NCBI GenBank assembly: GCA_016187465.1 | Contig: JACPJQ010000004.1 | Location: 7,092-71,091 of the forward strand | Direction: 5' to 3' | Length of the DNA: 64,000 bases | From: Candidatus Woesearchaeota archaeon | Lineage (GTDB): Archaea; Nanobdellota; Nanobdellia; Woesearchaeales; GW2011-AR4 | Part shown: positions 888-17,653 of the stretch, piece after piece | Layout: the number at the start of each line of letters is the position of its first letter | Numbering within the stretch: the first letter of the stretch is position 1 | The notes under the pieces: generated by a model | Told to the model about the DNA's origin: nothing | Databases searched by the model: none | The model's input: the letters and a program-made list of their open reading frames with translations, nothing else | Translations under genes and position numbers: made by a program

Positions 888-1838
888 TCAGGAAGCTTTA
901 TGTTTGTAGATAAAACGGGCAATAACAAAAACAAATAAAGCAAATGCAGCCATGCCAGCAAAAGTGATGTAGGGAATTTGGAGTATCCTGTCCTCAAAAA
1001 GGTATGCATAAACTGATGTCCTTAACGGGTCCAGGACGTTGATTACGTTTGTGCCGTTGAACACTATGAACAGTGCGCCTGTGCTTATCAGCAATAAGCC
1101 TGCAATTATTTTTGTTGTGTGCATAAAAAAGGTTTTTCCGAACAGTTTGATTTCAAATTCCCTGCCCCTGAGCCATGCCTTCTGAGTCAGGTTGTATTTG
1201 TCAAACAATATTGAGATTAAAAATAACGGGACAAACAATCCGAGAGAGTAAAAAAACAGCAATGCACCCGAGTAGAGATAGTTGTGGAAGGTAGATGCAA
1301 TAAGCAAAATGCCTGCAAGCACAGGGCCGAGGCACGCGCTCCATCCGAGCCCGAACAGAATGCCGAATGCGAAAATGCCGGCAATGTCATGCCCCGTCTT
1401 CCTGTCTATTTTTATGAAAGAAAAGCCTTTGCCGAGCATTGTCATAAGTCCAAAAACTATAAGAAGCGCTCCTGAAATGAATATCAAAATTTTTGTGTCT
1501 GCAAATTGGATTGAAGCCAGTGTTTCCCCTATTGCAGCCGCAAATATTCCAAGAATAACAAAGACAAACGAGAATCCCGCAAAAAAAACAAGGGTCATTT
1601 TTGTGATTTCCTTCCTTTCCTTGAATGTGTAGGCAAAGAAAGCGGGCAAAATAGCGAGCGTGCACGGCAGCAATACGCTGATTATGCCGCCCAGAAACGC
1701 CACAAAAAGGGAAAGATTTTTCAGATAAAACACAGCCTGCTGCTGGTTATAATCAGTGATTTTCTGCAGTCCAGACTGTGCAAAAGCCAACGGAATTAAT
1801 AAGAATATTGACAGCAAAAAGATGTTTATTTTTTTCAT
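888..1838 (-). CDS. CcdA/DsbD-family transmembrane thiol-disulfide electron transporter
   Basis: Polytopic membrane protein with the two TM-embedded Cys typical of CcdA (LLPCTLAILP and GWSACLGPVLAG). It has a signal peptide. Its start overlaps the downstream ORF. Confidence 0.55.
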   Translation of the reverse strand: MKKINIFLLSIFLLIPLAFAQSGLQKITDYNQQQAVFYLKNLSLFVAFLGGIISVLLPCTLAILPAFFAYTFKERKEITKMTLVFFAGFSFVFVILGIFAAAIGETLASIQFADTKILIFISGALLIVFGLMTMLGKGFSFIKIDRKTGHDIAGIFAFGILFGLGWSACLGPVLAGILLIASTFHNYLYSGALLFFYSLGLFVPLFLISILFDKYNLTQKAWLRGREFEIKLFGKTFFMHTTKIIAGLLLISTGALFIVFNGTNVINVLDPLRTSVYAYLFEDRILQIPYITFAGMAAFALFVFVIARFIYKHKAS

Positions 1839-2949: not shown

Positions 2950-3405
2950 ATGCTTATTTCTTTATTTAAATTTATGTTACTGCTACAAAAAATTGCCATT
3001 AACCAGAAGTTATTTATATTTGCTTGCTATTTTCTGCTTATGAAATCAAATTTTATTGCTAAAGATATAATTTATTCACTAAGCCCGTTAGAAGCTGATA
3101 TAATCAAATCCTTGTTACCAAACAAAAAATACAGGACAAGGGACATCTATGCATTAGTCAGAAACAAAGCCTCAAAGAGCAGCGTATCGGTAATTCTCGA
3201 TAGGCTGTACCAAAAAGGTCTCGTTAATAGGTCAGTTGAAACCGCCAGAGGCGGAATAAGGTTTGTATATGGTCTCGAGCAGAACAAGGAAAATTTTGAA
3301 AAGCGAGTAGTGGAAAATGTGGTGAATTCCATAATACAAAAATTTGGTTCAAAGGCAGTAGTGTATTTTAATGAGAGCTTAAAGAAGCGGGGCAAAAATG
3401 ATTGA
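2950..3405 (+). CDS. BlaI/MecI/CopY-family winged-helix repressor
   Basis: The LSPLEADIIKSLL...RTRDIYALV...SSVSVILDRLYQKGLVNRSVETARGGIRFVY pattern matches the BlaI/CopY DNA-binding domain. The true start is probably an internal Met. The stop overlaps the sensor gene. Confidence 0.5.
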   Translation: MLISLFKFMLLLQKIAINQKLFIFACYFLLMKSNFIAKDIIYSLSPLEADIIKSLLPNKKYRTRDIYALVRNKASKSSVSVILDRLYQKGLVNRSVETARGGIRFVYGLEQNKENFEKRVVENVVNSIIQKFGSKAVVYFNESLKKRGKND

Positions 3406-4168
3406 GCAGTTAGAAATGTGGAAAAATTACTTGTATCATATATTAAATCATCCTCTTCACATGGCTATCTTTGTCCCATCATTAATACTTTCAATTGCGT
3501 TTTTTATTCTGTTCAAAAAATCTGGAGATTTAAGGAAAAAGGTAAATTTTCTGGCAATGCATATAGCGCTGCTGTTCTTTCCCTTTGTGTTCTCGGCTGT
3601 TTTTTGGAGATGCATGATGCCTATGATGAACTGCATGCCTATGATGTTCATGATTTTTGTTCCAATCTCTGGAATCATAACTATAATTTTGGGTTTTGTG
3701 TTGTTGCCATATATGTATAGGTGGTCTGACAAATGCTGCTTAATTAAAAACAACTTTATCAAGAAATTCGTTGAAAAAAATTCCAAAATACTAAAAATAA
3801 AAGAGCCCGAAGTTTATTCGATAAACGATCTAGAGCCGGCAGCTTATTCCATAACAAACCTAAAACCATCGATTTTTGTGTCTGCGGGGCTTTCAGAACT
3901 GCTTACAAAGAAGGAACTCGAAGCGGTTTTGCTGCATGAATTGCATCATCACAAATGCAAAACCTACTTCTGGAAATTTTCGGGCAATGTCCTTAGGCTA
4001 TTTACGCCAGTGGCAGCTTTTACAGGATTCTCAGGCACCTTAGAAAAAGAGGAAATTGAAGCTGACAATTATGCTATATCCATGCAAAATACAAACAAAT
4101 ACATTCTTTCGGCAAAGTCAAAAATAAAAAATTTCAGGACTTCTCGGCTCCATGCAGATGCCAAATAA
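3398..4168 (+). CDS. BlaR1/M56-like membrane Zn-metalloprotease signal transducer with a Met-rich tract
   Basis: Polytopic membrane protein with HExxH (LLHELHHHKC). It carries an unusual Cys/Met-rich segment, WRCMMPMMNCMPMMFMIF. It is translationally coupled to the BlaI-like gene. Confidence 0.45.
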   Translation: MIEQLEMWKNYLYHILNHPLHMAIFVPSLILSIAFFILFKKSGDLRKKVNFLAMHIALLFFPFVFSAVFWRCMMPMMNCMPMMFMIFVPISGIITIILGFVLLPYMYRWSDKCCLIKNNFIKKFVEKNSKILKIKEPEVYSINDLEPAAYSITNLKPSIFVSAGLSELLTKKELEAVLLHELHHHKCKTYFWKFSGNVLRLFTPVAAFTGFSGTLEKEEIEADNYAISMQNTNKYILSAKSKIKNFRTSRLHADAK

Positions 4169-5102
4169 CGAGCAAAAAAATTGACAAAGCAGAAATGATC
4201 CCTAAAATGTTGCCTGATACTGACGTGAATATTCTTGTTCCCAAAGATGCCTCATTCAAGTAGCTCCAGAACGACATAGACCATGGAATGTATTTTGGCA
4301 GCTCGCTTTGAAAAAAGAAAGTTCCTTTAAAAATAACCATTAGTATCCCTATTGCAAGCAGCAAAATTCCTCCAATTATGTTGTATGTATGGGTAATTAT
4401 TTTTTTATTAAACAGCTTAAATTCTATTGATTTGCCCCTCAATAATTTTGAATTTGCCCAGTCGTATTTATCTGAGAAGAATGCCAGCAAAATCAAAGGA
4501 GATGCTATGCCTATTCCATAAAATACAAGCATCAAAGTCCCATTTAGCACAGTTGCAGAATTTGCAGCCAATAAAAGTATGCCTGTTAGAATTGGCCCAA
4601 CGCATGGAGTCCAGCCGATTCCGAAGAAAAATCCCAATGAAGCCACACTAAAAAAACTTTGGCCTTTCCTGTAATCCAATTTAAAATTAAAGATTGTGAA
4701 GCCTATATTGAAAAACATCAAAATTCCGAAAAAAATCAGCATATAGCCCGATATAACGGCAAAAGCCAGCTTGTAGCTGTTGAAGAAATTGCCCAAAAAG
4801 CCTGCTATCAGCCCAAAAAATGTGAATGCTATCAGCAGGCCAATCGAAAATGCGCTTGTCATAAGCACAGCTTTTTTTCTGTCCTTAAAAGCAAATGAAA
4901 AAAATGTCGGCAGCAAAGCAATACCGCAAGGTGAGGTCATTGAAATCAAGCCTGCAAAGAATGCAAGCAAAAATGTTATACTGGAGGCTAATTGCTGCTC
5001 TTGCTGCTTTAGTTTTTGAAGGCCTATTGGCAATTCCTGTGCGAACGCTATGCTAGCGAACAACACAACAAATATTAATACAATTAATAATTTTTTGGTC
5101 AT
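4134..5102 (-). CDS. CcdA/DsbD-family transmembrane thiol-disulfide transporter (paralog of 888..1838)
   Basis: TSPCGIALLP and GWTPCVGPILTG motifs. About 45% identical in architecture to 888..1838. Confidence 0.55.
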   Translation of the reverse strand: MTKKLLIVLIFVVLFASIAFAQELPIGLQKLKQQEQQLASSITFLLAFFAGLISMTSPCGIALLPTFFSFAFKDRKKAVLMTSAFSIGLLIAFTFFGLIAGFLGNFFNSYKLAFAVISGYMLIFFGILMFFNIGFTIFNFKLDYRKGQSFFSVASLGFFFGIGWTPCVGPILTGILLLAANSATVLNGTLMLVFYGIGIASPLILLAFFSDKYDWANSKLLRGKSIEFKLFNKKIITHTYNIIGGILLLAIGILMVIFKGTFFFQSELPKYIPWSMSFWSYLNEASLGTRIFTSVSGNILGIISALSIFLLVIWHLHGAEKS

Positions 5103-5594: not shown

Positions 5595-6119
5595 TTATAT
5601 TACGTACTTATACTTTTGCAAGCCAAAAAATGCCCTTATTCTCTTAAATAAACCACGGCAATCATCAATAACCATGCTATCATGTTTGTCCAAGAAGTTG
5701 TAAATATGCTTGTCAATTAACGCTCTTATGAAATAATAGATTGGCTTCATGCCCCAAAAGCTCATATGAACCATAGCATATCTCCACCCGTCTATGTTGA
5801 TAAGGACATCGCCATAGTTAATCCTTATCTTTTTCCCATCTTTCTTAATAATAACTTCTTTAACATTGTCCATTAAAGCTCTCAAAGAAATAATGCCCAT
5901 TGTATGCTCCATGTCCATATGCATATGTGCTTCTATTAGCCATTCTATTTTTTTGCCATTTTTTGTAACATGCTCCATCTTTTTCTTTGGTTCTTTTTCG
6001 TAGCCTTTTTCCTTTATCCAGTTATCAACTTCTGCATAGAAGTCCTCAACTACAAAAGGACCATTATAGGTTGTTCTCAAGTCATAAAGTACCTGTTTTC
6101 TCTCCATCATTTTTATCAC
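5595..6119 (-). CDS. Hypothetical cytoplasmic protein
   Basis: ORF of 174 aa with no TM segments. Its start overlaps the upstream HxH gene, so it is in the same operon. Confidence 0.3.
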   Translation of the reverse strand: MIKMMERKQVLYDLRTTYNGPFVVEDFYAEVDNWIKEKGYEKEPKKKMEHVTKNGKKIEWLIEAHMHMDMEHTMGIISLRALMDNVKEVIIKKDGKKIRINYGDVLINIDGWRYAMVHMSFWGMKPIYYFIRALIDKHIYNFLDKHDSMVIDDCRGLFKRIRAFFGLQKYKYVI

Positions 6120-6622
6120 TTATATTCAATCACAATTTCATCCTTATCATGCATAATATATTTATTAAATTCAAAATTTTCTTTACCGTTTACTGTAATT
6201 TTTAAAGTTCCATTTTCTCCATTGCAATATTCAAAAATGCAAGAGCTGTTGAAATTCCTTCCCCAGACTTTAAAGAAATAACCTAATGTCAAAGTTTCAG
6301 GCTTTTGCCATGGTCTGTTGTTCTCCAAATGTATAGTGCCATCGCTTTCATGCGTATGGGTAGGAGACATTCTCATACCGCTTATTTGATTATCTATATT
6401 GTTGCCTATGCTTATTCCGATATTTGGAGGTATAAACTGCTCTTCGCCTTTGATCATTATTTTAAGTTTAGGATGCCAGTGGACAGGCTGCTGAGGCACT
6501 CCGTTTGTATTATTGCTTTGAGACGGGCTTTTAAATAAAAGAATGAATCCTATAAATACAGCTATTATTACAATAACTGCAATATAAATTGGCTTTATTT
6601 TCATTTTAATGCAATTCCGCAA
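6116..6622 (-). CDS. HxH-motif membrane-anchored extracytoplasmic protein (HWH subtype)
   Basis: N-terminal TM segment. HWHPKL...THTHESDGTIHLE...CIFEYC...VNGKE. Paralog of 16913..17653 and more distantly of 6606..7322 and 11286..11927. Confidence 0.4.
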   Translation of the reverse strand: MRNCIKMKIKPIYIAVIVIIAVFIGFILLFKSPSQSNNTNGVPQQPVHWHPKLKIMIKGEEQFIPPNIGISIGNNIDNQISGMRMSPTHTHESDGTIHLENNRPWQKPETLTLGYFFKVWGRNFNSSCIFEYCNGENGTLKITVNGKENFEFNKYIMHDKDEIVIEYK

Positions 6623-7322
6623 AGCCTGTTATTGAATTAAACTGATTTTTTATTTCATCTTCGCTTTCATCGCCATAGCTTATCAAAATTTTGTCCAAAT
6701 CATTGAATACATAATTTTCAAATTCATTGCTTTCTTTTCCATTGACAAAGAATTTTAGCTTTTTATTGCTATTATTGCAGAATTCTTTGTTTTCCAGAGT
6801 TATGCAATTCTTGTTGAACTCCATGCCTATGCTTTTGAAGAAAACCCACAAAGGAACTCCGGTTGCGTGTATGTGCAATGCGCCGCCAGCATCGTCTTTG
6901 TTCTGCTGATTGTCAATGTGGACAAAGCTGCTTTTCATGTAAAATCTGCTATCTGCAAAATTAAGCGGCTTTTCATTTACATAAACTTTAAAGTCAGCAT
7001 GAATGTGCTGCGAATCGAGAATGCCTATTTTTGAATCTGGATTCATGTTGCACTCTAATTGCCCGGAGTCAAGACACATCTCTACAGGCATTCCACAGGA
7101 ATCGCATCTGCCGTCATTATTCCTGTCCATCATGCCTCTTCCAACCTCTCTGTCAAAAGCCGTCAAAGTCATTCCTGAAACTCTTTTCATTTGAGAAGAT
7201 GATTGTTCAACTTGCCCTGTTTTTGAGCTTAGAAAATCAAATAGGGAAAATATGAGCAGTCCGATAACTATAAAGAATATAAATATTAATGTCAATGCCC
7301 CAAAATCTGCCTTTAATTTCAT
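6606..7322 (-). CDS. HxH-motif membrane-anchored extracytoplasmic protein (HIH subtype) with N-terminal YHS-like CxxCGM segment
   Basis: HIHADFKVYVNEKP...HIHATGVP...KNCITLENKEFCN...FFVNGKE. About 55% identical to ORF 11286..11927. Extra RCDSCGMPVEMC motif. Confidence 0.4.
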   Translation of the reverse strand: MKLKADFGALTLIFIFFIVIGLLIFSLFDFLSSKTGQVEQSSSQMKRVSGMTLTAFDREVGRGMMDRNNDGRCDSCGMPVEMCLDSGQLECNMNPDSKIGILDSQHIHADFKVYVNEKPLNFADSRFYMKSSFVHIDNQQNKDDAGGALHIHATGVPLWVFFKSIGMEFNKNCITLENKEFCNNSNKKLKFFVNGKESNEFENYVFNDLDKILISYGDESEDEIKNQFNSITGFAELH

Positions 7323-7739: not shown

Positions 7740-8261
7740 TCATTTCTTATGTTTATCTTTTTTATCTTTCATACTCTTCCACAATTTTATAATCCAAAGA
7801 TAAACCAAGATTATTAGTCCTATAAATAGTATAATATAAAGAACATTTAGAAAATTCCAATAGCCAAAACCGTAGCCATAAGGCGTACTCCCATAACTCA
7901 TCCTATTGCCTCCCATCATCATATTCATCATTCCTCCATTCATCATGCCAGCACCCATCATTCCGCCTGTATTTTCATTGCAATACACCATTTTTGCCAT
8001 GTTAATATGAAACTGCTTTTCTGCTTCAGAGCCTTCTTTAATTCCCATCATTTTATGCATAAGCTCATGGCTTTCGCCAGAGTGCATTAATTCCATTTCA
8101 TACTCCCCAATTATTTCTAACTGGGAGTCTGATAGACTTTTGCAGTCCACTCTTGAATCAATCAAGTTCTTAGCTTCTTTGATTTCCTGTTGTGTGATTG
8201 CATTAGCTAAACCCAAATTTAACAATAAAGCAACAATTGCAACGAATATTATTTCTTTCAT
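7740..8261 (-). CDS. Secreted Met/Gly-rich protein (MMGAGMMNGGMMNMMMGG, GYGFGY)
   Basis: Signal peptide. Met-rich low-complexity region of the kind found in Cu(I)-binding Met-motif proteins. Confidence 0.4.
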   Translation of the reverse strand: MKEIIFVAIVALLLNLGLANAITQQEIKEAKNLIDSRVDCKSLSDSQLEIIGEYEMELMHSGESHELMHKMMGIKEGSEAEKQFHINMAKMVYCNENTGGMMGAGMMNGGMMNMMMGGNRMSYGSTPYGYGFGYWNFLNVLYIILFIGLIILVYLWIIKLWKSMKDKKDKHKK

Positions 8262-9157: not shown

Positions 9158-9355
9158 TTAGCAGCCGCCTACCATTGAAGGCAAGTTTTGTATGCTTGAT
9201 GGAACACTTGCTCCAGAACTTTGGAGTGGTGCGCTTCCAACATTCACATTGCCTGTGCTTATGCTTGTCTTCAGACTGCTCAGCTGAATGGCTTGAACTG
9301 CCGTCAGAAGCACTAAAACCACAAGCACAATCACAATGATAACATTTCTGTTCAT
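9158..9355 (-). CDS. Small membrane-anchored protein (65 aa)
   Basis: N-terminal TM helix. Confidence 0.2.
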   Translation of the reverse strand: MNRNVIIVIVLVVLVLLTAVQAIQLSSLKTSISTGNVNVGSAPLQSSGASVPSSIQNLPSMVGGC

Positions 9356-9389: not shown

Positions 9390-10379
9390 CTAAGCTTGCA
9401 TTTCTTGAACTATCCTTTTAATTGTTGGGCCTGGATACCATAAGGAATACCATCTGCCCATTTCTCCATAAATCTCTTCATCTGTAAACTTATCAGCGTA
9501 ATTCTTTATGAACCATCTTGCCATTCCTTGAGCAGCTGCAGAATGCGCGCACCCGCATCTCGTTATTATTGTCGGATTTTGCGGAGAGCCGCAGCAGTAA
9601 TCGCATGTGAATGAATTTACTATCTTGCTCCATCTTTGTTCTTGCTCAGGGTCCAATTCCAGCTTCCTGTAAGTTGCCCACCTCTTCTGCGCAGCTATCG
9701 GGTCATCAAAAGTGACGCCTGCTTCCTGCCCATACCAAGGAGTTCCTGTCGGGATAATATTATTCAGCAAATCTCTAGCCGCATCTCCAGTTGACGGCTT
9801 AAGTGATAATTCGCTAATTGTTGGCATTGGCTTAACCTTTGTTTTGTAGCCAGATATTACAGGCTGTTCGCCGGATGCAAGTGGCATTGGCTTAAGGGTG
9901 ATTTTCGAGCCAACTTCAAACTGCCCCAGTTTTAAAGTTCCGCCGCTGCCTGATCCAAAGAATTTTAATGGTGCAGAAGATACAGAACTTACAAAACTGC
10001 CAGTTGATGGATTACCGCTTGCCAAGCCATTCACTTGGAAAATCTGGAACTGGTTGAATAAGATTAATAAAGCTGCCAAACCTACTAAGCCATAACTAAA
10101 TTTTTCAATGAATGTCAATGGTTTTCTTTCTGATTTTGCAATGTGCTCGACAACATGTTCTTTTTTATCTTTATCATGAACTTGTTCATCTTTGCCAATA
10201 ATCCACCATGCAAGCAAGAATACCAGAGCTAATAACAACAATAATGATAGCATGTTCAGAAGCATGCTTGAAGAGTATTTAATCAAGAAGAGCTGCTTGT
10301 AAAGAAGTCCAATCCCTACAATAGAAATTAAGACTAACATTACCTTCTCCATAAATGGGTCATTTCTCTCTTCTGTCAT
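9390..10379 (-). CDS. Membrane-anchored protein with CxYCCG...CGC motif (paralog of 1..744)
   Basis: Two N-terminal TM helices. C-terminal FTCDYCCGSPQNPTIITRCGCAHS. Confidence 0.4.
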   Translation of the reverse strand: MTEERNDPFMEKVMLVLISIVGIGLLYKQLFLIKYSSSMLLNMLSLLLLLALVFLLAWWIIGKDEQVHDKDKKEHVVEHIAKSERKPLTFIEKFSYGLVGLAALLILFNQFQIFQVNGLASGNPSTGSFVSSVSSAPLKFFGSGSGGTLKLGQFEVGSKITLKPMPLASGEQPVISGYKTKVKPMPTISELSLKPSTGDAARDLLNNIIPTGTPWYGQEAGVTFDDPIAAQKRWATYRKLELDPEQEQRWSKIVNSFTCDYCCGSPQNPTIITRCGCAHSAAAQGMARWFIKNYADKFTDEEIYGEMGRWYSLWYPGPTIKRIVQEMQA

Positions 10380-10708: not shown

Positions 10709-11302
10709 CTATTCATTAACCAATTTGCCAAGCAGCACTTTCCATTGTTCTTCATCAAATGCGCCGATTGTGCGGTATATTATTGTTCCATTACTGCCAA
10801 TTGCATATTTGGTAGTTGTTTTTGTAATGCCATAGTCAATAAGTATTTTTTCCTGACCTTGTGCAAATATAGTTTTTTGCAGCTCTGGGTATTCTTTCTT
10901 GTATTCCTTAAGCTTAAGAAAATCCTCGCTTAAGTCCAGGCTTATTGATATAAATGTTATGTTATCTTCATACTCCCTGTACATTTTTGATAATGCAGCA
11001 TAGTCCTTTGCGCACCATGGGCACCATGTTGCCATGAAATACACAATAACTGGCCTTTTCCGCTCAATGATGTCGTATAATCTTACAGGCTTTCCCTCTG
11101 TAGTTATCACAACAAAATCCGAAGGGGCTTGGCCAACTCTGGTGCCGATAACTTGCACTTGATTTGTGTTTTGATAAACTGTTGTTGACTTTTCTTCGAG
11201 TTTGTCTTTGCTTGAAAATACATAGATGGCAATAGCAGAGAGCATTATAATCACTAATATTACAAAAAAATCAGATTTCCATTTCTTAATGGTTTTTTGC
11301 AT
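10709..11302 (-). CDS. TlpA/ResA-like membrane-anchored thioredoxin (WCPWC)
   Basis: N-terminal TM segment. Thioredoxin fold with the WCPWC active site. Confidence 0.65.
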   Translation of the reverse strand: MQKTIKKWKSDFFVILVIIMLSAIAIYVFSSKDKLEEKSTTVYQNTNQVQVIGTRVGQAPSDFVVITTEGKPVRLYDIIERKRPVIVYFMATWCPWCAKDYAALSKMYREYEDNITFISISLDLSEDFLKLKEYKKEYPELQKTIFAQGQEKILIDYGITKTTTKYAIGSNGTIIYRTIGAFDEEQWKVLLGKLVNE

Positions 11303-11927
11303 AATCTGTCACTGAATTTATCTGTTTTAGAAGTTCTTCTTCTGTTTCATCGCCGTAACTTATCAGTATTTTGTCCATATCTCTGAAGACATAAACTCCG
11401 ATATCAGAATATTCCTTCCCATTTACAAAAAATCTAAATTTTTTATTGGCGCTATTGCAAAATTTTTGCTGATTTTCCAGGGTAATGCATTCTTTGCCCA
11501 AATCAGCCCCAACACTTTTTAAAAAATACCAGAATGGAACGCCTGTTGCGTGCATGTGTATAAGCCCTGAAGCGTCTTCCTTGTTTTGCTGGTCGTCCAG
11601 ATGGATGACACTGCTTTTCATATAGTGTTTATCATCGGCAAAATTTATGGGATTTCCATTAATAAAAATCTTAAAATCGGCGTGGATGTGCTGCGAGCCT
11701 AAAGCCCCCATATTTGCACTTTTAACCCTTTCGTCTTTAGCTAGCTCGTCATCCATAAAATTAAATTGCATTGAAGACCGCACATTTTTTTGAGATGAAA
11801 CTGCATTTATCTTATCGGCAGTGAAGCTGAAAAAATCTTTCAAAGCCAAGACTAACATTCCAAAAACAGCAATCAATAAGATTGCCAGTGCTATTCTTTC
11901 TGTTTTGCTTTCCATGTTTGATGCCAT
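11286..11927 (-). CDS. HxH-motif membrane-anchored protein (HIH subtype)
   Basis: HIHADFKIFINGNP...HMHATGVP...KECITLENQQKFCN...FFVNGKE. Overlaps the thioredoxin gene. Confidence 0.4.
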   Translation of the reverse strand: MASNMESKTERIALAILLIAVFGMLVLALKDFFSFTADKINAVSSQKNVRSSMQFNFMDDELAKDERVKSANMGALGSQHIHADFKIFINGNPINFADDKHYMKSSVIHLDDQQNKEDASGLIHMHATGVPFWYFLKSVGADLGKECITLENQQKFCNSANKKFRFFVNGKEYSDIGVYVFRDMDKILISYGDETEEELLKQINSVTDYAKNH

Positions 11928-11929
11928 AT

Positions 11930-12376
11930 TTAGTTTTTAACGATGTACTTTCCTTTCATTCCTGTATGCCCCGGGCCGCAATAGACCGTGCATACCATAT
12001 CCCACTCCCCAGCTTCTTCTGCGTTTATCTCCAACATTGTTTTGTCTCCTTTTTTGACTGCATTTTCAGTATCCCAGCCGGGGATTATTATGCCTTCTAA
12101 TTCAAAGCCGTGCGGAACATCAATGCTTTCTATCACAAATCTTATTTTTTCCCCTTTCTTAACTACAATAGTATCTGGCTCCCATCTGTACTGTATTGAT
12201 TTCACTTCAATCTCCCTGACTCCATTTATAATTTTGCCGCTTAAAGGCAGGCTGTCAAATTTCTTTTTATGGTATTCAATTATTTTTTTAGCCTTTATTG
12301 CATCTTCATTTTCTTTTGGAGCGCATGCGCTTGCGAAGATTATCAATAAAACAAACATTAACATTGTTTTTTTCAT
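11930..12376 (-). CDS. CuA-type cupredoxin lipoprotein (cytochrome oxidase subunit II-like soluble domain)
   Basis: Lipobox ASACAPK. VPHGF...(about 40 aa)...CTVYCGPGHTGM, which is the H / C-x3-C-x3-H-x2-M CuA ligand set. Confidence 0.55.
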   Translation of the reverse strand: MKKTMLMFVLLIIFASACAPKENEDAIKAKKIIEYHKKKFDSLPLSGKIINGVREIEVKSIQYRWEPDTIVVKKGEKIRFVIESIDVPHGFELEGIIIPGWDTENAVKKGDKTMLEINAEEAGEWDMVCTVYCGPGHTGMKGKYIVKN

Positions 12377-13224
12377 TTTGAGTTGTAAATTTCCTTGATT
12401 AACTCTGTTTCAATAACATCAATATCTTGGCCGATGTGGTAGTTTTTTGGAACGTCGCCTGGCAGTGTGCCTGTGAATGAAATGCTTCCGTCTTTTGCGC
12501 TTACCCCCGCAAAAAAAGGATAAAACTGCCCCTGCAGTTTATTGACCCATACCGGCTCATTGACATTTACGACCAAGTAAGGCTCAAATCCATTGACAGA
12601 AGGCGCATTAAAGCTGAGCTCTGCCACCAATCCTGCAACGTTTTTTGTTATTGCAGGAGTTGTGCCGATAGAATCTTTCGGGTAATCAAAAATTGACAGG
12701 CGCCATGCTATCACGCTGCCGTTGACTGCATCGACCTGAACCATAAAATCCTCACCCACAGCAAGAATTCCATTTACATACCGAAACCATTTGTAGAAAT
12801 AAGTGCCGTCAACCTCTGAAACTTCAGGGTCCAGTCTCAACTCAGGTTTTGCATTCCCGGGCAGTTTTTCGAAAATTTTTTTTGCAATCTCCAGCCCCCT
12901 TTCCTCAGTTAAGGTTTTAGTGCCCGCGCTGTGCCTTAAATTTTCATTTCTCATGCCATAAATCTCATAAGCAAGAGGATTAACTTCGACATAATTTCTC
13001 TGCTCCGGCTCAAAAAGAACTATTATCAATCCCTTGTCAAGGTCAAATGATATAGGCTCATTATCTGTGCTAAGAAAATTTTTGGCGGCGTTTACCGTGT
13101 TTTCTTTCAGCTCCTTGTCAAAATCAAGGCTTATGTTAAACAGGTAAATTGAATGCGCTCCCACTATAATAACAGAGGATAATACTATTAAAATAAAAAT
13201 CAAGAACTGTTTAATATGCGTCAT
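12373..13224 (-). CDS. Hypothetical secreted protein
   Basis: N-terminal TM or signal segment. Overlaps the cupredoxin start. Confidence 0.3.
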   Translation of the reverse strand: MTHIKQFLIFILIVLSSVIIVGAHSIYLFNISLDFDKELKENTVNAAKNFLSTDNEPISFDLDKGLIIVLFEPEQRNYVEVNPLAYEIYGMRNENLRHSAGTKTLTEERGLEIAKKIFEKLPGNAKPELRLDPEVSEVDGTYFYKWFRYVNGILAVGEDFMVQVDAVNGSVIAWRLSIFDYPKDSIGTTPAITKNVAGLVAELSFNAPSVNGFEPYLVVNVNEPVWVNKLQGQFYPFFAGVSAKDGSISFTGTLPGDVPKNYHIGQDIDVIETELIKEIYNSK

Positions 13225-13269
13225 GTTTGATATTTCTTTTTAGATAAACAAAAAATAGATTTATTGTTT

Positions 13270-13716
13270 TCACTTGACGATGAGGTTTCCTTTCATTCCG
13301 CTATGCCCTGAGCCGCAGAACACTGAGCAGTAAGCTGTGAAAGTGCCTTCTTTGTCTGCTGTAAACTCTATTGTAACGGGCTTGCCTACTTCGAGCCTTT
13401 CATTTATGCCATACTCCTTGATTGCTATGCCGTGCGGCACATCCATGCTTGTCACTATGAGCCTTACTTTGTCGCCTTTGTTGACTTCGATGGTTGATGG
13501 TGTAAATGAAAACTGCTTTGCCGTAATTTTGAATTCTTTGACATTGATTCCAGACACTTCTGTATCTTTAGTTGCTGGCTCCTCTATAATCGGCTGTTTT
13601 TGCCCCGGAACTTCACTTCCCCCGCCAACGAGGTTTTCCGGCGCTTGAGTATTTTGATTGGCACAGGCACTGACCAAAAACACGCCCAGCACTAAAAACA
13701 ATATTATTTTTTTCAT
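13270..13716 (-). CDS. CuA-type cupredoxin lipoprotein (paralog)
   Basis: Lipobox VSACANQ. VPHGI...AYCSVFCGSGHSGM. Confidence 0.55.
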   Translation of the reverse strand: MKKIILFLVLGVFLVSACANQNTQAPENLVGGGSEVPGQKQPIIEEPATKDTEVSGINVKEFKITAKQFSFTPSTIEVNKGDKVRLIVTSMDVPHGIAIKEYGINERLEVGKPVTIEFTADKEGTFTAYCSVFCGSGHSGMKGNLIVK

Positions 13717-13849: not shown

Positions 13850-14671
13850 TTACAACGAAACCGAAACAACCCATCTCAAGAAATACCCTACATAATAAGC
13901 CAAAACTGCAGCTACTCCCCCGATGAACAATGTCTCGAGAATTGTTTTCCACCAAGCTTTTTTTGTTACGTATCTTTTTATTAATCCAATGACTGTAAGG
14001 GCAATAGCTGTCATGACAATGGCTATTACAAAAGTATGCTTATTGAATATTGGGAAGAAATAAGAGAACACATAGGCAAGCAGCGGGATGATGCCTATAG
14101 CCAAAAAGCCAAAGTAAGTTACAGCAGCGGTCTTCCACGGAGTTTTACTGCTTTCCAGCAGCCCAAGCTCGTCTGACATCATTGTGTCAATCCATACTTT
14201 CTTATTTGAGGTTATAACCTTTACCGCCAGCTCAAGGTCTTTGCCTTTGAAGCCTTTTTTCTTCATTATCTCCCTTACCTCGTGGATTTCGCCTTCGGGA
14301 ATATTTTCAATCTCCCATTCTTCCCTTTGCCTTTCTTTTTTTATGAAATCCCTTTGGGTTTTCTCGCTTAGATAGTTGCCGCATGCCATTGAAAATCCAT
14401 CAGCCAGCAGGTTTGCAAACCCCAGAATAATAACAATTCCCGAGGACAATGCTGCCCCTGTTGCCCCGGCAACAACAGCAAAAGTGGTTACTGTGCCGTC
14501 TATGGCCCCATACACAAATTCCCCCAAATACTCTCCTTTCATAAGAATTGGCTCTTCTTCGTGAATTTGGCGGTGTATCAATGAGCTTTTATGGGCTTTT
14601 CTAGCCATCTCTATGTCTTTTGTGGCAAATGCACGCTGAGCTTTTGCAATTCTGGTGTTCTTCTTTGTCAT
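13850..14671 (-). CDS. VIT1/CCC1-family Fe/Mn transporter
   Basis: GAIDGTVTTFAVVAGATGA motif plus C-terminal TM segments. Confidence 0.55.
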   Translation of the reverse strand: MTKKNTRIAKAQRAFATKDIEMARKAHKSSLIHRQIHEEEPILMKGEYLGEFVYGAIDGTVTTFAVVAGATGAALSSGIVIILGFANLLADGFSMACGNYLSEKTQRDFIKKERQREEWEIENIPEGEIHEVREIMKKKGFKGKDLELAVKVITSNKKVWIDTMMSDELGLLESSKTPWKTAAVTYFGFLAIGIIPLLAYVFSYFFPIFNKHTFVIAIVMTAIALTVIGLIKRYVTKKAWWKTILETLFIGGVAAVLAYYVGYFLRWVVSVSL

Positions 14672-15093: not shown

Positions 15094-15336
15094 CTAAGAA
15101 CTAGCAAGTGTTGAGAAATTAACCTCAACTGGAATGTCCAATTTAATGTCCTGAAGGTCTTTAGACCGTTTTTTAAAGCTAAGAATGCCAACACTTTTCA
15201 CTTCCTCTGATTTTTCATCTATTCTTAGGAATACCCCTGGCTTTACTTCAGAAGCATAGCATTTTGATGGCTTTCCCACAGAGATTTCCAAAAAATCTCC
15301 TTCCTCGTCATAATAAACTTTCATAGGACCTTTCAT
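15094..15336 (-). CDS. DUF2283-like antitoxin
   Basis: YYDEEGDFLEI motif. Overlaps the upstream toxin-like gene. Confidence 0.4.
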   Translation of the reverse strand: MKGPMKVYYDEEGDFLEISVGKPSKCYASEVKPGVFLRIDEKSEEVKSVGILSFKKRSKDLQDIKLDIPVEVNFSTLASS

Positions 15337-15644
15337 TTTATATTCCTCACAAAGTAAGCTGTGATTATAAAGCCATGCTCATTTAAATACTTAACGATTA
15401 CAAGCAGGTATTTTGCTGATTCTCTTTCCTTGAAATACTTGTAATAGTATCTGACATTTTCATCAAGTTCATATTCAGTAATTTTAACAGGATTTTTTAG
15501 TGTCTCTTTTATATCTTCAAGGTAGGGAGCAACTTCAGGATGCTCTTGATTGAGATGTTTCCATCTTTCATCTGAGAGATGAATTTTCCTGCCTGATTTG
15601 TCTTCAACCTCAAAAATCCACGTCATAATACATATTGATTGCAA
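15333..15644 (-). CDS. DUF4258-like toxin
   Basis: Size, and pairing with DUF2283-like gene 15094..15336. Confidence 0.35.
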   Translation of the reverse strand: MQSICIMTWIFEVEDKSGRKIHLSDERWKHLNQEHPEVAPYLEDIKETLKNPVKITEYELDENVRYYYKYFKERESAKYLLVIVKYLNEHGFIITAYFVRNIK

Positions 15645-16203: not shown

Positions 16204-16911
16204 TTAATTAAGTGTTATAGTTCCGTTTGCAATCAAAATCAGCAGCCAGCCAAGGAGTATTAAGATTATGCCGGTTGCAAGCCTCATGTAAGTTCTGTTG
16301 CCTTGCTTCCATCTCTTTAAGTTTTGTATCTTAACGCCAAAATAAACCATCAGCAAAATAACCACCAATGGCAAGACAAAGATAACATTGTAAAGGATAA
16401 GCCACAAAAATGCAGTAAAATTAAAATTTTGCGACAAAAACACAAGGATTGCCAAATACGGTCCGCCTGTGCATGGCAGTTCAACACCCGCAACAAAAGC
16501 CCCCAGGAAAATCATTGCAGGTAAGGTAATTTTCTTCGTCATTTCATGTATCTGCTTTGCCCTTTCAGGAGGAATCGACAAAGTGATGCCCTGCCCGTAC
16601 CAGAAAAAATCCTTTATTTCAATCAAGCCTGCTATTACGATTAAAGAGCCTACAACTATTGATATGTACTCGCTCACGACAATCGGGATTACACTTAAAA
16701 AATACAGAATACCCAGCCCTGCCAACAGGTATGTCAGGAACACAAAAAATATGTATATAAGCCCGTAGAATAGCATCTCTTTTTTCGAGCGGAATGCTAT
16801 CATAACCGAAACCAGAAGTATAAGCACCCCTATAGCGCAAGGGTTAATTGAATCTATCAATGCTGTTGTTACAACTGTTCCTAAAGTCGGAAGATATGCT
16901 TGAACTGTCAT
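16204..16911 (-). CDS. CcdA-like / DsbD_2 family membrane protein
   Basis: INPCAIGVL in TM1 and LPCTGGPY in a later TM segment. Confidence 0.5.
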   Translation of the reverse strand: MTVQAYLPTLGTVVTTALIDSINPCAIGVLILLVSVMIAFRSKKEMLFYGLIYIFFVFLTYLLAGLGILYFLSVIPIVVSEYISIVVGSLIVIAGLIEIKDFFWYGQGITLSIPPERAKQIHEMTKKITLPAMIFLGAFVAGVELPCTGGPYLAILVFLSQNFNFTAFLWLILYNVIFVLPLVVILLMVYFGVKIQNLKRWKQGNRTYMRLATGIILILLGWLLILIANGTITLN

Positions 16912-16912
16912 T

Positions 16913-17653
16913 TTATCCTATATTGGGGTTTATTTCCTCTGTTGGCTTTTCCGTGAATACAATTTTTATCATGTCCCCGGGAGGCACTTTTTCATAAGGA
17001 GAGATCACATAATCACGAGGATTTTCAATCAGGTTTCCGTTGACAAAAACATAAAGTTTTGCAGGTCTTTCATTGCACTTGTCCCCCTCATGAAATGAGG
17101 CTAATCCATTATCGGTTGGGACGATTATTCCATCACTGGAAAGAGAGCCGCCTATAGCATAGAAGAAAGCCCCCAAGCTGGCTGCTTTCCTGTCCAATAA
17201 AACTCCCTCTACATGAATTCTATTGTCATTATGGGCGTGCATTAAATCTGTCCCTTGCTTGTTTGAAAAGCCCTTTGGCTCTATCAGTTTAATTTCTTTG
17301 CCGCAAACCAGAAGTTCGTAGTCAGCATGCCAATGCACAGGACCTTTTGTAATTGAGATTATGTTTAAGTGCAATGTTGTCAGGATAAGATAGAGAGTTG
17401 TAAGCCCGATTGAAACCGCGATTAGTATATAAGCTGTCTTTTTTGCCGTTTCATTCATTTTTTTATTAAATAATAGAATTGTCACAATTAAAATGCCAAA
17501 AACCAAAGTGCCATAGCTGACTGCCTGCAGTTGGCTTATTGGATAAAGCTCAGAATGGTCAAGCATATACGCTTCTTCCTCTCCGTGGGCAATAACAATA
17601 AAAACAGATAAAACTAATATTAAAAATAAAAATACCAAAAACCTCTTTTTCAT
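16913..17653 (-). CDS. HxH-motif membrane-anchored protein (HWH subtype)
   Basis: HWHADYELLVCGKE...LMHAHNDNRIHVEGV...FVNGNLIE. Directly upstream of the CcdA-like gene. Confidence 0.4.
   Translation of the reverse strand: MKKRFLVFLFLILVLSVFIVIAHGEEEAYMLDHSELYPISQLQAVSYGTLVFGILIVTILLFNKKMNETAKKTAYILIAVSIGLTTLYLILTTLHLNIISITKGPVHWHADYELLVCGKEIKLIEPKGFSNKQGTDLMHAHNDNRIHVEGVLLDRKAASLGAFFYAIGGSLSSDGIIVPTDNGLASFHEGDKCNERPAKLYVFVNGNLIENPRDYVISPYEKVPPGDMIKIVFTEKPTEEINPNIG

What the first reader, a model, noticed from the sequence alone, without database searches (positions are those of the whole stretch)
11930..13716. Two lipoprotein cupredoxins with a complete CuA (binuclear copper) ligand set, with no heme-copper oxidase in the window
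Both 148-aa proteins carry H-(about 40 aa)-C-x3-C-x3-H-x2-M (VPHGF...CTVYCGPGHTGM and VPHGI...CSVFCGSGHSGM). This matches the CuA site of COX subunit II and NosZ. They have lipoboxes and no TM helices. No oxidase subunit I/III or NosZ catalytic domain is encoded in the 64 kb. Free-standing CuA domains next to TlpA/CcdA are reminiscent of bacterial CuA-assembly loci. Here they may act as stand-alone electron carriers.
Basis: partly seen in the sequence, partly recalled or inferred. Interest (0 to 1): 0.6.

Follow-up and report, generated by a model that had tools for sequence, protein, structure and literature searches.

The report
Stand-alone CuA copper lipoproteins in Woesearchaeota

Summary
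ORFs 13270-13716 and 11930-12376 (minus strand, 148 aa each) are Sec/lipobox proteins. Their C-terminal ~95 residues are a CuA-type cupredoxin, with H, C-x3-C-x3-H-x2-M in register with Thermus ba3 CuA and NosZ. The window is archaeal (Candidatus Woesearchaeota, DPANN) and holds no COX1, NosZ catalytic domain, cytochrome c or multicopper oxidase.

The proteins are not orphan fragments. They belong to a large family of stand-alone CuA cupredoxins in Woesearchaeota/Nanoarchaeia, with relatives in some CPR and Omnitrophota bacteria. The CuA ligands are essentially invariant. Their nearest bacterial relatives are the CuA domains of clade II NosZ.

Related 'nosZ-like, CuA-only' DPANN proteins were reported in 2024 (mBio), with function left open.

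Context is conserved: VIT1, CuA-1, a 283-aa protein, CuA-2, a His-cluster beta-grasp protein, a TlpA/ResA-like thioredoxin, and several CcdA/DsbD membrane proteins. Elsewhere the CuA domain is fused to the His-cluster domain or to thioredoxin. It also sits beside multicopper oxidases, ZIP/NRAMP/P19 metal transporters, or copper pumps.

Best reading: tethered one-electron carriers in a heme-free, quinone-free extracytoplasmic metal/thiol redox system, matured by TlpA/CcdA. Partner and physiological role remain inferred.

The parts
13270..13716 (-). CuA-1: 148-aa lipoprotein cupredoxin. Signal peptide plus lipobox (LVSAC, C18), a disordered linker at about residues 20-55, and a CuA domain at 55-148 with H95, C130, C134, H138, M141.
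   Evidence: Pfam PF13473 44.5 bits and PF00116 (COX2) 35.5 bits, both above cut-off. GGAGGTG plus an AT-rich/TATA-like stretch lies upstream.
11930..12376 (-). CuA-2: 148-aa lipoprotein cupredoxin of a narrower subfamily. C18 lipobox; H89, C129, C133, H137, M140; 5-residue insertion after the first His.
   Evidence: Its ATG overlaps the TGA of the preceding 283-aa ORF. In related loci it is always found together with that ORF and with CuA-1.
12373..13224 (-). 283-aa membrane-anchored protein between the two cupredoxins, with weak DUF4901/PepSY-like similarity. It is an obligate companion of CuA-2.
   Evidence: DUF4901 E 0.004, below cut-off. No PDB sequence match. No conserved metal motif among 11 homologues. 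Found in 10 of 10 loci that have CuA-2.
11286..11927 (-). 213-aa 'HxH' His-cluster beta-grasp protein, one of four paralogues in the window. Candidate copper-binding partner or chaperone.
   Evidence: Alignment A1. Starts 2 bp after the CuA-2 stop. The same domain is fused N-terminally to a CuA domain in P0221 and P0320.
10709..11302 (-). TlpA/ResA-like membrane-anchored thioredoxin (WCPWC). Overlaps the end of the HxH gene.
   Evidence: AhpC-TSA/Redoxin; ResA 57 bits; ResA 4NMU E 4e-13. Paradigm: TlpA keeps the CoxB CuA cysteines reduced (PMC6669012). A CuA-thioredoxin fusion exists (P0353).
13850..14671 (-). VIT1/CCC1-family Fe2+/Mn2+ transporter directly upstream of CuA-1.
   Evidence: PF01988, 228 bits. 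Adjacent to the CuA-1 orthologue in 20 of 32 DPANN loci.
16204..17653 (-). Conserved pair: 246-aa HxH protein (16913-17653) and a 235-aa CcdA-like/SfLAP membrane protein (16204-16911).
   Evidence: Conserved H107, H109, H139, H141, H147, D111, D143, E149.
9390..10379 (-). 329-aa membrane protein with a C-terminal Cys cluster (CDYCCG...CGCAHS). Conserved member of the island.
   Evidence: C259, C262, C263, C275, C277, H279 conserved in 16 homologues. No Pfam or PDB match.
4134..5102 (-). CcdA/DsbD-type membrane protein (322 aa, 8 hydrophobic segments).
   Evidence: (PF02683, 47.7 bits).
888..1838 (-). Second CcdA/DsbD-type membrane protein (316 aa). The island continues past the left edge of the window with a 331-aa gene.
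   Evidence: (PF02683, 61.4 bits).
6116..7322 (-). Two further HxH beta-grasp paralogues (6116-6622, modelled; 6606-7322).
   Evidence: AF2 pLDDT 87. Best Foldseek hits are only distant beta-grasp domains (transcobalamin beta domain E 0.095; ThiS/MoaD/Urm1).
7740..8261 (-). 173-aa secreted/anchored Met- and His-rich protein (MMGAGMMNGGMMNMMMGG). This is a typical Cu(I)-binding composition.
   Evidence: Homologues in L019 and L022. The Cu(I) interpretation rests on general knowledge of Met-rich copper proteins.
2950..4168 (+). BlaI/CopY-family repressor (2950-3405) and an M48/M56 BlaR1-like membrane protease with a Met/Cys-rich segment (CMMPMMNCMPMM). Candidate metal-responsive regulator pair.
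   Evidence: Peptidase_M48, M56; Penicillinase_R. The same pair is next to the cupredoxin in L022 and L035.

Best explanation
Both genes encode bona fide stand-alone CuA cupredoxins of a Woesearchaeota (DPANN) archaeon. They are not fragments or subunits of a heme-copper oxidase or of N2O reductase.

Proposed mechanism:
1. The proteins are exported unfolded by Sec and lipid-anchored through the lipobox Cys18. They hang on a disordered linker of about 35 residues at the outer face of the membrane.
2. The co-transcribed TlpA/ResA-like thioredoxin keeps the two bridging cysteines reduced. It is supplied with reductant through the CcdA/DsbD-type membrane proteins of the same island.
3. Two copper ions are inserted, possibly handed over by the His-cluster 'HxH' beta-grasp proteins.
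4. The mature binuclear centre then shuttles single electrons within a heme- and quinone-free extracytoplasmic redox network. This network deals with transition metals (Cu+/Fe2+/Mn2+) and thiols. Multicopper oxidases, present in related loci, are the most likely electron sink.

Shown: sequence, fold, ligand register, export signals, operon structure, conserved neighbourhoods, domain fusions, and absence of COX1/NosZ from the window and from related loci.

Inferred: copper binding, electron transfer, the maturation role of TlpA/CcdA, the role of HxH, and the identity of donor and acceptor.
For: CuA identity:
- Ligands are in register with 2CUA and NosZ.
- The fold matches at 1.5 A rmsd.
- H/C/C/H are invariant, and the axial residue is M (rarely Q) across the family.
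- Of the 149 best 50%-identity representatives, 146 carry the full motif and most are 130-200 aa stand-alone proteins.

Not a COX2:
- There is one signal peptide with a lipobox instead of two TM helices.
- CoxB scores are 38-49 bits against a cut-off of 147.7.
- The residue supplying the backbone-carbonyl ligand is Val in 47 of 55 sequences, not the Glu that bridges to subunit I in COX2 (own knowledge).
- There is no COX1 motif in the window or in any DPANN locus, while CoxB-CtaD pairs in L087-L089 served as positive controls.
- Literature: no HCO subunit I in DPANN.

Not NosZ: scores are 65-70 bits against cut-offs of 625-700, confined to the last ~110 model positions.

Tether: the linker has pLDDT below 55.

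Maturation:
- The gene string CuA-1, 283 aa, CuA-2, HxH, TlpA is tightly packed or overlapping.
- The thioredoxin is ResA-like.
- The TlpA-CoxB paradigm is published.

Functional linkage by fusion: HxH-CuA (P0221, P0320), CuA-thioredoxin (P0353), tandem CuA (P0211, P0283).

Conserved context in 25 DPANN loci of at least 10 kb: HxH 18, DsbD 17, SfLAP 17, VIT1 16, C-rich 16.

Oxidase partners in relatives:
- CueO-like three-domain multicopper oxidases occur inside the island in L005, L006 and L018.
- Two-domain multicopper oxidases have a stop that overlaps the cupredoxin start in L025 and L031. The same cassette is in L023, where the cupredoxin ORF was not resolved by my ORF filter.
- These cassettes also carry DtxR, ZIP and NRAMP genes.
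Against: - No copper binding, colour or redox activity has been measured for any member.
- No electron donor or acceptor is encoded in this window. A multicopper oxidase is present in only 6 of about 34 stand-alone loci.
- Most supporting synteny comes from closely related Woesearchaeales genomes, so the counts are not independent.
- Some relatives sit next to copper-export genes: a P1B ATPase in L040, an HMA-DsbD_2-CupA-like fusion in L043, and a CusA-like RND pump in L033. These fit a copper-handling role as well as, or better than, an electron-carrier role.
- These organisms are generally regarded as anaerobic fermenters, which leaves the terminal acceptor unclear.
- The rest of the 306-kb contig and of the genome could not be inspected.
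Confidence: 0.5

Rival explanations
1. Copper handling rather than electron transfer. The Cys2His2Met site binds and sequesters or relays copper at the cell surface, as a chaperone or resistance protein in the manner of CupA, CopI or PcoC. The island as a whole would be a copper-homeostasis locus.
For: - Met-rich protein at 7740-8261, and a BlaI/BlaR1-like pair with a Met/Cys-rich membrane segment.
- CueO-like multicopper oxidases with a Met-rich insert in L005, L006 and L018.
- A relative whose gene overlaps a P1B-type ATPase (L040). Another next to an HMA-DsbD_2-cupredoxin fusion with a CupA-like SCGMGM motif (L043). Another next to a CusA-like RND pump, with a His-rich N-terminus (L033).
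- Weak hits to CupA (2MRY, E 1e-4) and CopI.
Against: - The complete CuA ligand set and its spacing are invariant over thousands of sequences and identical to the redox sites of COX2 and NosZ.
- Known copper-trafficking cupredoxins use different sites: CupA uses Cys plus CxMxM, PcoC uses Met/His (own knowledge).
- A thiolate-bridged Cu2 core is a poor exchangeable site.
- No copper ATPase or HMA protein is in this window.
- CuA-1 and CuA-2 themselves have no His/Met-rich tracts.
Confidence: 0.2
2. Iron/manganese redox-coupled transport. The cupredoxin oxidises Fe2+ (or Mn2+) at the membrane in concert with a transporter, like FtrB/EfeO/Fet3-type ferroxidase-permease systems. Here it would work with the adjacent VIT1 exporter.
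For: - VIT1 is immediately upstream in 20 of 32 DPANN loci.
- Other lineages place the cupredoxin directly before a ZIP-family transporter, with DtxR and NRAMP alongside (L023, L025, L030, L031). L022 places it before a P19/FtrA-type Fe2+ transport protein.
- FtrB and the EfeO N-domain are Cupredoxin_1-type proteins (own knowledge).
Against: - CuA-1 has its own promoter-like region, separated by 134 bp from VIT1. The VIT1 adjacency is confined to one clade and may be passive synteny.
- No Ftr1-type permease is present.
- The thiol-redox and HxH genes, and the fusions, are not explained by this model.
- This is a special case of the electron-carrier model rather than a true alternative.
Confidence: 0.12
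3. Split or minimal N2O reductase. The CuA protein is the electron-entry half of a NosZ-like enzyme whose catalytic half is a separate protein (the hypothesis raised for ocean oxygen-deficient-zone DPANN).
For: - The best family-level hits are the CuA domains of L-NosZ and Sec-type NosZ.
- The nearest bacterial relatives (42-50% identity) are clade II NosZ C-termini.
- The HxH partner carries a cluster of about five conserved His residues. The mBio paper notes a five-His protein upstream of the gene in two genome bins.
Against: - No beta-propeller or lactonase-type domain, and no nosDFYL-like set, is in the window or in 32 related loci.
- The HxH domain is a small beta-grasp, unlike any CuZ scaffold.
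Confidence: 0.06
4. Ordinary subunit II of a heme-copper oxidase whose subunit I lies elsewhere in the genome.
For: Pfam COX2 hit for CuA-1. Some sources annotate relatives as 'cytochrome c oxidase subunit II'. The rest of the genome is unseen.
Against: - Lipobox instead of the two-helix membrane anchor.
- CoxB score is one third of the cut-off.
- Two paralogues sit in one operon with non-oxidase genes.
- Tandem and fused family members exist.
- No COX1 occurs near any of 32 DPANN homologues, although bacterial controls show the usual CoxB-CtaD adjacency.
- No HCO subunit I is known in DPANN.
Confidence: 0.04

Closest known systems
CuA domain of cytochrome ba3 oxidase subunit II, Thermus thermophilus (PDB 2CUA)
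   Same: Same fold (rmsd 1.5 A over 94 residues, 32% identity). Identical ligand set. For CuA-1, identical H-35-C-x3-C-x3-H-x2-M spacing.
   Different: No transmembrane hairpin and no subunit I. Lipoprotein anchor plus a long disordered linker. Val instead of Gln/Glu at the carbonyl-ligand position. CoxB model score far below cut-off.
C-terminal CuA domain of Sec-dependent (clade II) and lactonase-type (clade III) NosZ
   Same: Highest-scoring curated families (65-70 bits over the last ~110 positions). 42-50% identity to Bacteroidota, Ignavibacteria and Bacillaceae NosZ C-termini. Sec-type export.
   Different: The whole catalytic domain (about 450-500 residues, CuZ) is missing, and no nos accessory genes are present.
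'nosZ-like' CuA-only proteins of oxygen-deficient-zone DPANN archaea (Zhang et al., mBio 2024, PMC10936187)
   Same: DPANN hosts. C-x3-C-x3-H CuA motif without CuZ. Predicted extracytoplasmic location. No other respiratory genes. Phylogenetic position between Cox2 and clade II NosZ.
   Different: - That paper reports other neighbours (acyl-carrier-protein genes) and suggests an ODZ-restricted distribution. Here the family is abundant in groundwater Woesearchaeota, with a thiol/metal redox neighbourhood.
- Sequence-level identity with their proteins was not checked.
PmoD/AmoD (PMC6189053)
   Same: A cupredoxin outside COX and NosZ that forms a CuA-type centre, with function unresolved.
   Different: PmoD builds the site across a homodimer interface with a non-canonical ligand set and has a C-terminal TM helix. 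The proteins here carry the canonical single-chain ligand set and an N-terminal lipid anchor.
Bacterial CuA biogenesis system: TlpA, ScoI, PcuC (PMC6669012)
   Same: A membrane-anchored CxxC thioredoxin of the TlpA/ResA type next to the CuA proteins. CcdA-type reductant conduits are nearby.
   Different: No Sco (CxxxCP) and no PCuAC/PcuC homologue was detected in the window. His-cluster beta-grasp proteins occupy the place where a copper chaperone would be expected.
Copper-resistance and iron-uptake cupredoxins (CupA, CopI, PcoC; FtrB, EfeO N-domain)
   Same: Small extracytoplasmic, often membrane-tethered cupredoxin-fold proteins encoded beside metal pumps, multicopper oxidases or Fe2+ transporters. 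This matches several relatives of this family.
   Different: Those proteins have mononuclear or Cu(I)-cluster sites with other ligands (own knowledge). None has the CuA set.

Membership tests
CuA-type cupredoxin domain (Pfam PF00116 COX2 periplasmic domain / PF13473 Cupredoxin_1) | Score above the curated Pfam threshold | tested here: met
   CuA-1: PF13473 44.5 bits (cut-off 27) and PF00116 35.5 bits (cut-off 22). CuA-2: PF13473 35.7 bits (cut-off 27); no PF00116 hit.
CuA-type cupredoxin domain | Ligand set His, Cys-x3-Cys-x3-His-x2-Met at the positions of the known CuA sites | tested here: met
   Gap-free HMMER alignment to 2CUA/1EHK across the ligand loop. Residue numbers. Invariance.
CuA-type cupredoxin domain | Greek-key beta-sandwich fold superposable on solved CuA domains | tested here: met
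   AF2 pLDDT about 98 for residues 55-148. Foldseek top hits are ba3 CuA (rmsd 1.5 A, probability 1.00) and NosZ CuA domains. Done for CuA-1 only.
CuA-type cupredoxin domain | Binuclear mixed-valence Cu1.5-Cu1.5 centre (purple, seven-line EPR) | not testable with these tools
   Needs recombinant protein and spectroscopy.
Heme-copper oxidase subunit II (CoxB, TIGR02866) | Score at or above the curated cut-off (147.7 bits) | tested here: not met
   48.6 and 38.4 bits, C-terminal part only. A true CoxB (L087) scores 168 bits.
Heme-copper oxidase subunit II | N-terminal two-helix membrane anchor | tested here: not met
   One hydrophobic segment at residues 1-19, ending in a lipobox Cys.
Heme-copper oxidase subunit II | A subunit I (COX1) encoded with it or elsewhere in the genome | tested here: inconclusive
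   Absent from the window and from 32 related DPANN loci, with positive controls working. Lineage-level absence is reported in the literature.
Nitrous-oxide reductase NosZ (TIGR04246, TIGR04244, NF052460) | Full-length match including the catalytic CuZ domain (cut-offs 625-700 bits) | tested here: not met
   At most 70 bits, restricted to the last ~110 model positions. True NosZ proteins from L047, L048 and L073 score 860-904 bits.
Nitrous-oxide reductase NosZ | nosDFYL-type accessory genes nearby | tested here: not met
   None among the window proteins scanned. The NosF-like ABC gene follows NosZ only in the bacterial loci.
DPANN 'nosZ-like' CuA proteins (mBio 2024) | DPANN host, CuA motif, no CuZ, extracytoplasmic, no other respiratory genes | tested here: met
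   Direct sequence comparison with the published proteins was not done.
Type 1 blue copper proteins (plastocyanin/azurin/halocyanin) | Mononuclear site with a single Cys (H, C, H, M) | tested here: not met
   Both proteins have the second bridging Cys and the CuA loop length. The PF00127 hits are weaker than the CuA-type hits.
CupA-type Cu(I) chaperone cupredoxin | Cys plus C-x-M-x-M cluster and a partner CopA ATPase | tested here: not met
   The motif is absent from both proteins, and no P-type ATPase is in the window. A CupA-like motif and an ATPase occur only in distant relatives' loci L043 and L040.
TlpA/Sco/PCuAC CuA-assembly system | Membrane-anchored CxxC thioredoxin reductase and a CcdA-type reductant conduit | tested here: met
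   10709-11302 has WCPWC and is ResA-like. DsbD_TM proteins at 888-1838 and 4134-5102, and a CcdA-like protein at 16204-16911.
TlpA/Sco/PCuAC CuA-assembly system | Sco (CxxxCP...H) and PCuAC copper chaperones | tested here: not met
   No significant SCO1/SenC hit (only E 0.033 on the TlpA-like protein) and no PCuAC hit among window proteins.

The most novel reading that the evidence does not exclude
The CuA lipoproteins, the His-cluster beta-grasp (HxH) proteins, the CcdA/DsbD membrane proteins and the TlpA-like thioredoxins form a previously unrecognised electron-transfer chain on the surface of DPANN archaea, free of heme and quinone.

In this reading, reducing equivalents exported as dithiols, or taken from Fe2+/Cu+ or a host cell, pass through CuA to a copper catalytic site. 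That site would be HxH or a multicopper oxidase, and from there electrons would go to O2 or another oxidant.

This would give organisms thought to lack any electron transport chain a way to dispose of electrons, make disulfides without quinones, or exchange electrons with hosts. The HxH-CuA fusion would then be a new minimal copper oxidoreductase, built like NosZ (catalytic domain plus CuA domain).
Probability: 0.15. Interest if true: 0.85.

Novelty: new variant of a known kind. Interest (0 to 1): 0.55.

Why it matters
CuA is one of the classic biological electron-transfer centres. In nature it has been characterised only inside cytochrome oxidases, N2O reductase and a few relatives, plus the odd dimeric PmoD site. 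All 'soluble CuA proteins' studied so far are engineered fragments.

A large natural family of free-standing, lipid-tethered CuA proteins would give bioinorganic chemists a native minimal CuA system. It is concentrated in DPANN archaea and some ultra-small bacteria that are believed to have no respiratory chain.

It would also force a second look at the claim that these organisms lack extracytoplasmic redox metabolism. In addition, it bears on environmental surveys, because these genes are easily mis-scored as nosZ or coxB.

Tried and rejected
- **Alignment-based locus search.** The single protein was used instead.
- **Peribacteria multicopper oxidase.** I suspected that the two-domain multicopper oxidase next to a CuA cupredoxin lacked its type 1 Cys, so that CuA would replace it. 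Reading the sequence showed an intact HCH motif in domain 1, so the idea was dropped.
- **Spurious ORF.** An ORF in L016 flagged by the multicopper-oxidase motif scan was a spurious low-complexity frame.
- **Sequence searches against PDB.** Searches with the HxH profile, the 283-aa protein and the C-rich protein found nothing. Pfam and NCBIfam gave nothing for HxH, the 138-aa CHNAC membrane protein, the 163-aa GCPIC membrane protein, or the 162- and 174-aa proteins.
- **HxH fold search.** Foldseek on the HxH model gave only distant beta-grasp matches (best E 0.095), so no functional transfer was possible.
- **Reaching the rest of the contig.** Only short Logan contigs came back for the cupredoxin. 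Only 1.2 kb beyond the left window edge came back for the DsbD gene.
- **Literature.** Five Woesearchaeota/DPANN genomics papers do not mention these proteins.
- **RNA scans.** tRNA and Rfam scans of the window were empty.
- **Not attempted.** No tree of CuA domains was built. Placement rests on HMM scores and pairwise identities. No multimer modelling tool was available to test cupredoxin-partner complexes.


Full report
**What is there.** ORFs 13270-13716 and 11930-12376 lie on the minus strand and encode 148 aa each. I call them CuA-1 and CuA-2. They are 33% identical to each other.

Each begins with a short basic, hydrophobic signal peptide that ends in a lipobox (LVSAC and FASAC, Cys18). 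There is no twin-arginine motif, so export is by Sec.

HMMER against all PDB chains puts the Thermus thermophilus ba3 CuA domain first for both proteins (E 7e-12 and 2e-9). NosZ, other COX2 chains and nitrosocyanin follow. The alignments run without gaps through the ligand loop.
- CuA-1 ligands: H95, C130, C134, H138, M141, with H-to-C spacing of 35. From my knowledge of the ba3 and NosZ structures, this is the same spacing as theirs.
- CuA-2 ligands: H89, C129, C133, H137, M140, with a 5-residue insertion after the first His.

The pattern C-x3-C-x3-H-x2-M occurs nowhere else in any frame of the 64 kb.

An AF2 model of CuA-1 has pLDDT about 98 for residues 55-148 and about 50 for residues 20-55. 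Foldseek returns ba3 CuA (rmsd 1.5 A over 94 residues) and then NosZ CuA domains.

**Whose genome.** Fibrillarin, Nop5, topoisomerase VI subunit A, deoxyhypusine synthase and SecDF show an archaeon. GC content is about 37%. Both proteins are identical to NCBI entries named 'cupredoxin domain-containing protein [Candidatus Woesearchaeota archaeon]' on a 306-kb contig.

**Is an oxidase hiding in the window?** No.
- All ORFs large enough were scanned with Pfam.
- No protein has more than eight hydrophobic segments.
- The COX1 hallmark [GA]HP[EAV]VY is absent from all six frames.
- Every CxxCH lies in a non-coding frame.

The same scan found COX1 directly after true CoxB genes in three bacterial loci. 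NCBIfam confirmed those as CoxB/CtaD.

The rest of the genome could not be retrieved. Beam et al. 2020 state that no DPANN genome has had an HCO subunit I identified.

**A family, not a fragment.**
- CuA-1 has 542 relatives (90%-identity clusters) at E below 1e-5, almost all 133-180 aa. The names that exist are Woesearchaeota, Nanoarchaeota or Nanoarchaeia.
- CuA-2 belongs to a narrower group of 89 clusters.
- An exhaustive phmmer search of 1.84 billion representatives gives 7370 hits at E 1e-3 or better. These include NosZ and COX2.
- Of the best 149 hits, 146 have the full CuA motif and most are short lipoproteins.
- In alignments of 45 and 55 members, H/C/C/H are invariant. The axial residue is Met, or Gln in one distant clade.
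- The residue that supplies the backbone-carbonyl ligand is Val in 47 of 55 sequences. In COX2 this residue is the Glu that bridges to subunit I (my knowledge).

In GTDB species genomes, the closest relatives outside DPANN are a few CPR and Omnitrophota proteins. Next come the C-terminal domains of 610-660-aa clade II NosZ (42-50% identity), confirmed at 860-904 bits. True COX2 proteins are further away. Curated models agree: L-NosZ 65-70 bits, Sec-NosZ up to 67, CoxB 38-49. All are far below their cut-offs and confined to the CuA domain.

**Precedent.** Zhang et al. (mBio 2024, PMC10936187) found a 'nosZ-like' gene in 21 of 33 DPANN genome bins from ocean oxygen-deficient zones.
- The gene had the CuA motif but no CuZ.
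- The bins had no other respiratory genes.
- The proteins formed a clade between Cox2 and clade II NosZ.
- They did not complement P. aeruginosa delta-nosZ.

This is very probably the same family, although I did not compare sequences. So the core surprise, CuA without an enzyme in DPANN, is published, with function left open. Other Woesearchaeota genomics papers I checked do not mention it.

**Local anatomy.** CuA-1 has its own Shine-Dalgarno sequence and an AT-rich/TATA-like upstream region, 134 bp after the VIT1 gene. The genes then follow tightly:
- CuA-1
- a 283-aa anchored protein, 45 bp downstream
- CuA-2, whose ATG overlaps the preceding TGA
- a 213-aa 'HxH' protein, 2 bp downstream
- a TlpA/ResA-like thioredoxin with WCPWC, overlapping by 17 bp

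Around this string lies an island of extracytoplasmic and membrane proteins:
- three CcdA/DsbD-type proteins
- three more HxH paralogues
- a Cys-cluster protein
- a Met-rich protein
- a rhodanese
- small proteins ending in LPSMVGGC
- a BlaI/BlaR1-like pair with a Met/Cys-rich membrane segment

**Conservation.** In 25 DPANN loci of at least 10 kb, the CuA-1 orthologue is accompanied by:
- HxH in 18
- DsbD in 17
- the CcdA-like SfLAP protein in 17
- VIT1 in 16
- the C-rich protein in 16

CuA-2 never occurs without the 283-aa gene and CuA-1 (10 of 10 loci). Many of these genomes are close relatives, so these counts overstate independence. However, two divergent loci (41-44% identity) still keep the C-rich, CuA and DsbD genes, and one of them keeps HxH between CuA and DsbD.

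**Domain fusions.** Among the representatives I found:
- HxH-CuA, in two separate clusters
- CuA-thioredoxin with a WCPTC active site
- tandem CuA-CuA
- DUF7282-CuA, in at least eight clusters
- SLH-CuA

The HxH domain was modelled at pLDDT 87. It is a beta-grasp with conserved H107/H109/H139/H141/H147 plus acidic residues (HxH246 numbering). It has no close structural or sequence relative.

**Other neighbourhoods of the family.**
- A cassette of DtxR, two-domain multicopper oxidase, CuA cupredoxin, ZIP-family transporter and NRAMP recurs in Nanoarchaeia, and in parts in a Woesearchaeote and in a CPR Peribacterium. The cupredoxin start overlaps the oxidase stop in L025 and L031.
- CueO-like three-domain oxidases with a Met-rich insert sit inside the island in three Woesearchaeota loci.
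- Single cases place the cupredoxin next to a P19/FtrA-type Fe2+ protein, a P1B ATPase, an HMA-DsbD_2-CupA-like fusion, or a CusA-like pump.
- No stand-alone member (Woesearchaeota/Nanoarchaeia, CPR or Omnitrophota) is next to COX1 or a NosZ propeller.

**Interpretation.** The invariant, canonical ligand set argues for a real redox-active CuA centre. The lipid anchor and long flexible linker resemble tethered electron shuttles (my knowledge: cytochrome c_y, lipoprotein cupredoxins).

The co-transcribed TlpA-like thioredoxin and the CcdA proteins fit the established requirement that the CuA cysteines be kept reduced before metallation. Sco and PCuAC are missing. The His-cluster proteins are the obvious candidates for copper delivery, or alternatively for a catalytic partner.

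The wider contexts say the family works in extracytoplasmic handling of Cu, Fe/Mn and thiols. Multicopper oxidases are the only recognisable electron sink.

I therefore favour tethered one-electron carriers in a non-respiratory surface redox network (confidence about 0.5). The rivals are:
- a pure copper-handling role (0.2)
- iron/manganese-coupled oxidation, as a special case of the carrier model (0.12)
- a split NosZ (0.06)
- an orphan COX2 (0.04)

Donor, acceptor and physiological purpose are not established.

**Verdict.** It is a stand-alone variant of a known kind of copper site with a published precedent in DPANN. What is added here is the conserved gene island, the two-cupredoxin cassette, the fusions to the His-cluster and thioredoxin domains, and the recurrent link to multicopper oxidases and metal transporters. 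It is of moderate interest. It would be of high interest if the island proves to be a heme-free electron-transfer chain.

Noticed in passing
window 6116-6622, 6606-7322, 11286-11927, 16913-17653 (all minus strand): Four paralogues of an unannotated extracytoplasmic family with motifs H-x-H ... H-x-H-x-D ... H-x-E. The AF2 model is a beta-grasp with no close relative in PDB. The genes are regularly adjacent to CcdA/DsbD-type genes, and the domain is fused to a CuA domain in P0221 and P0320.
   Followed up: partly
window 9158-9355 (minus strand); L035 7741-7962 and 6958-7716: Small N-terminally anchored proteins, and a 252-aa protein, end in the same C-terminal motif ...NLPSMVGGC. This may be a sorting, lipidation or carrier motif. 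They are conserved next to the C-rich protein in the island.
   Followed up: no
window 9390-10379 (minus strand): 329-aa membrane protein with an invariant C-terminal cluster C-x2-C-C ... C-G-C-x-H. It has no Pfam or PDB match. A second copy (331 aa) lies just beyond the left window edge (L090 4782-5777).
   Followed up: partly
window 2950-4168 (plus strand); also L022 and L035: A BlaI/CopY-family repressor plus a BlaR1-like M48/M56 protease whose membrane part contains CMMPMMNCMPMM. This looks like a thiophilic-metal sensor controlling the island. The pair recurs next to the cupredoxin in two divergent genomes.
   Followed up: partly
window 7319-7735 and 1835-2326 (minus strand): Two small polytopic membrane proteins with membrane-embedded Cys motifs (QVCHNAC and GCPICN) and no family assignment. 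They may be thiol-disulfide or metal relay components.
   Followed up: no
window 15094-15644 (minus strand): A toxin-antitoxin-like pair (PBECR2 RelE-like nuclease plus DUF2283) is inserted between the ATP-cone gene and VIT1. In L007 the same spot holds a ParE toxin and an HNH protein, so it appears to be an insertion hot spot.
   Followed up: partly
L023 7668-11282, L025 7427-10029, L030 144-2008, L031 8745-10996: The cassette DtxR, two-domain multicopper oxidase, CuA cupredoxin, ZIP-family transporter (with an extra N-terminal outside domain) and NRAMP is shared between Nanoarchaeia/Woesearchaeota and a CPR Peribacterium. This suggests inter-domain transfer of a metal-redox module.
   Followed up: partly
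L043 5185-6630: A single protein fuses a cytoplasmic HMA domain, a DsbD_2 membrane domain and an outside cupredoxin with a CupA-like SCGMGM motif. It hints that DsbD-type membrane domains may relay Cu(I) rather than electrons in these loci.
   Followed up: no
P0202-P0208 (distant relatives of CuA-2): A clade has Gln in place of the axial Met (C-x3-C-x3-H-x2-Q). This would be a natural CuA variant known otherwise from engineered proteins.
   Followed up: no
window 45390-46721 (minus strand) and 43073-43705 (minus strand): An SLT lytic-transglycosylase-domain protein in an archaeon, possibly aimed at a bacterial host cell wall, and an MvaI/BcnI-type restriction endonuclease.
   Followed up: no
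L010, L011, L015-L017, L021, L022, L025, L034, L035: Several public genome bins titled 'uncultured Methanosarcinales archaeon' carry loci syntenic with Woesearchaeota (Nop5, fibrillarin, HxH, SfLAP, VIT1, cupredoxin). The titles look like taxonomic mislabels.
   Followed up: no
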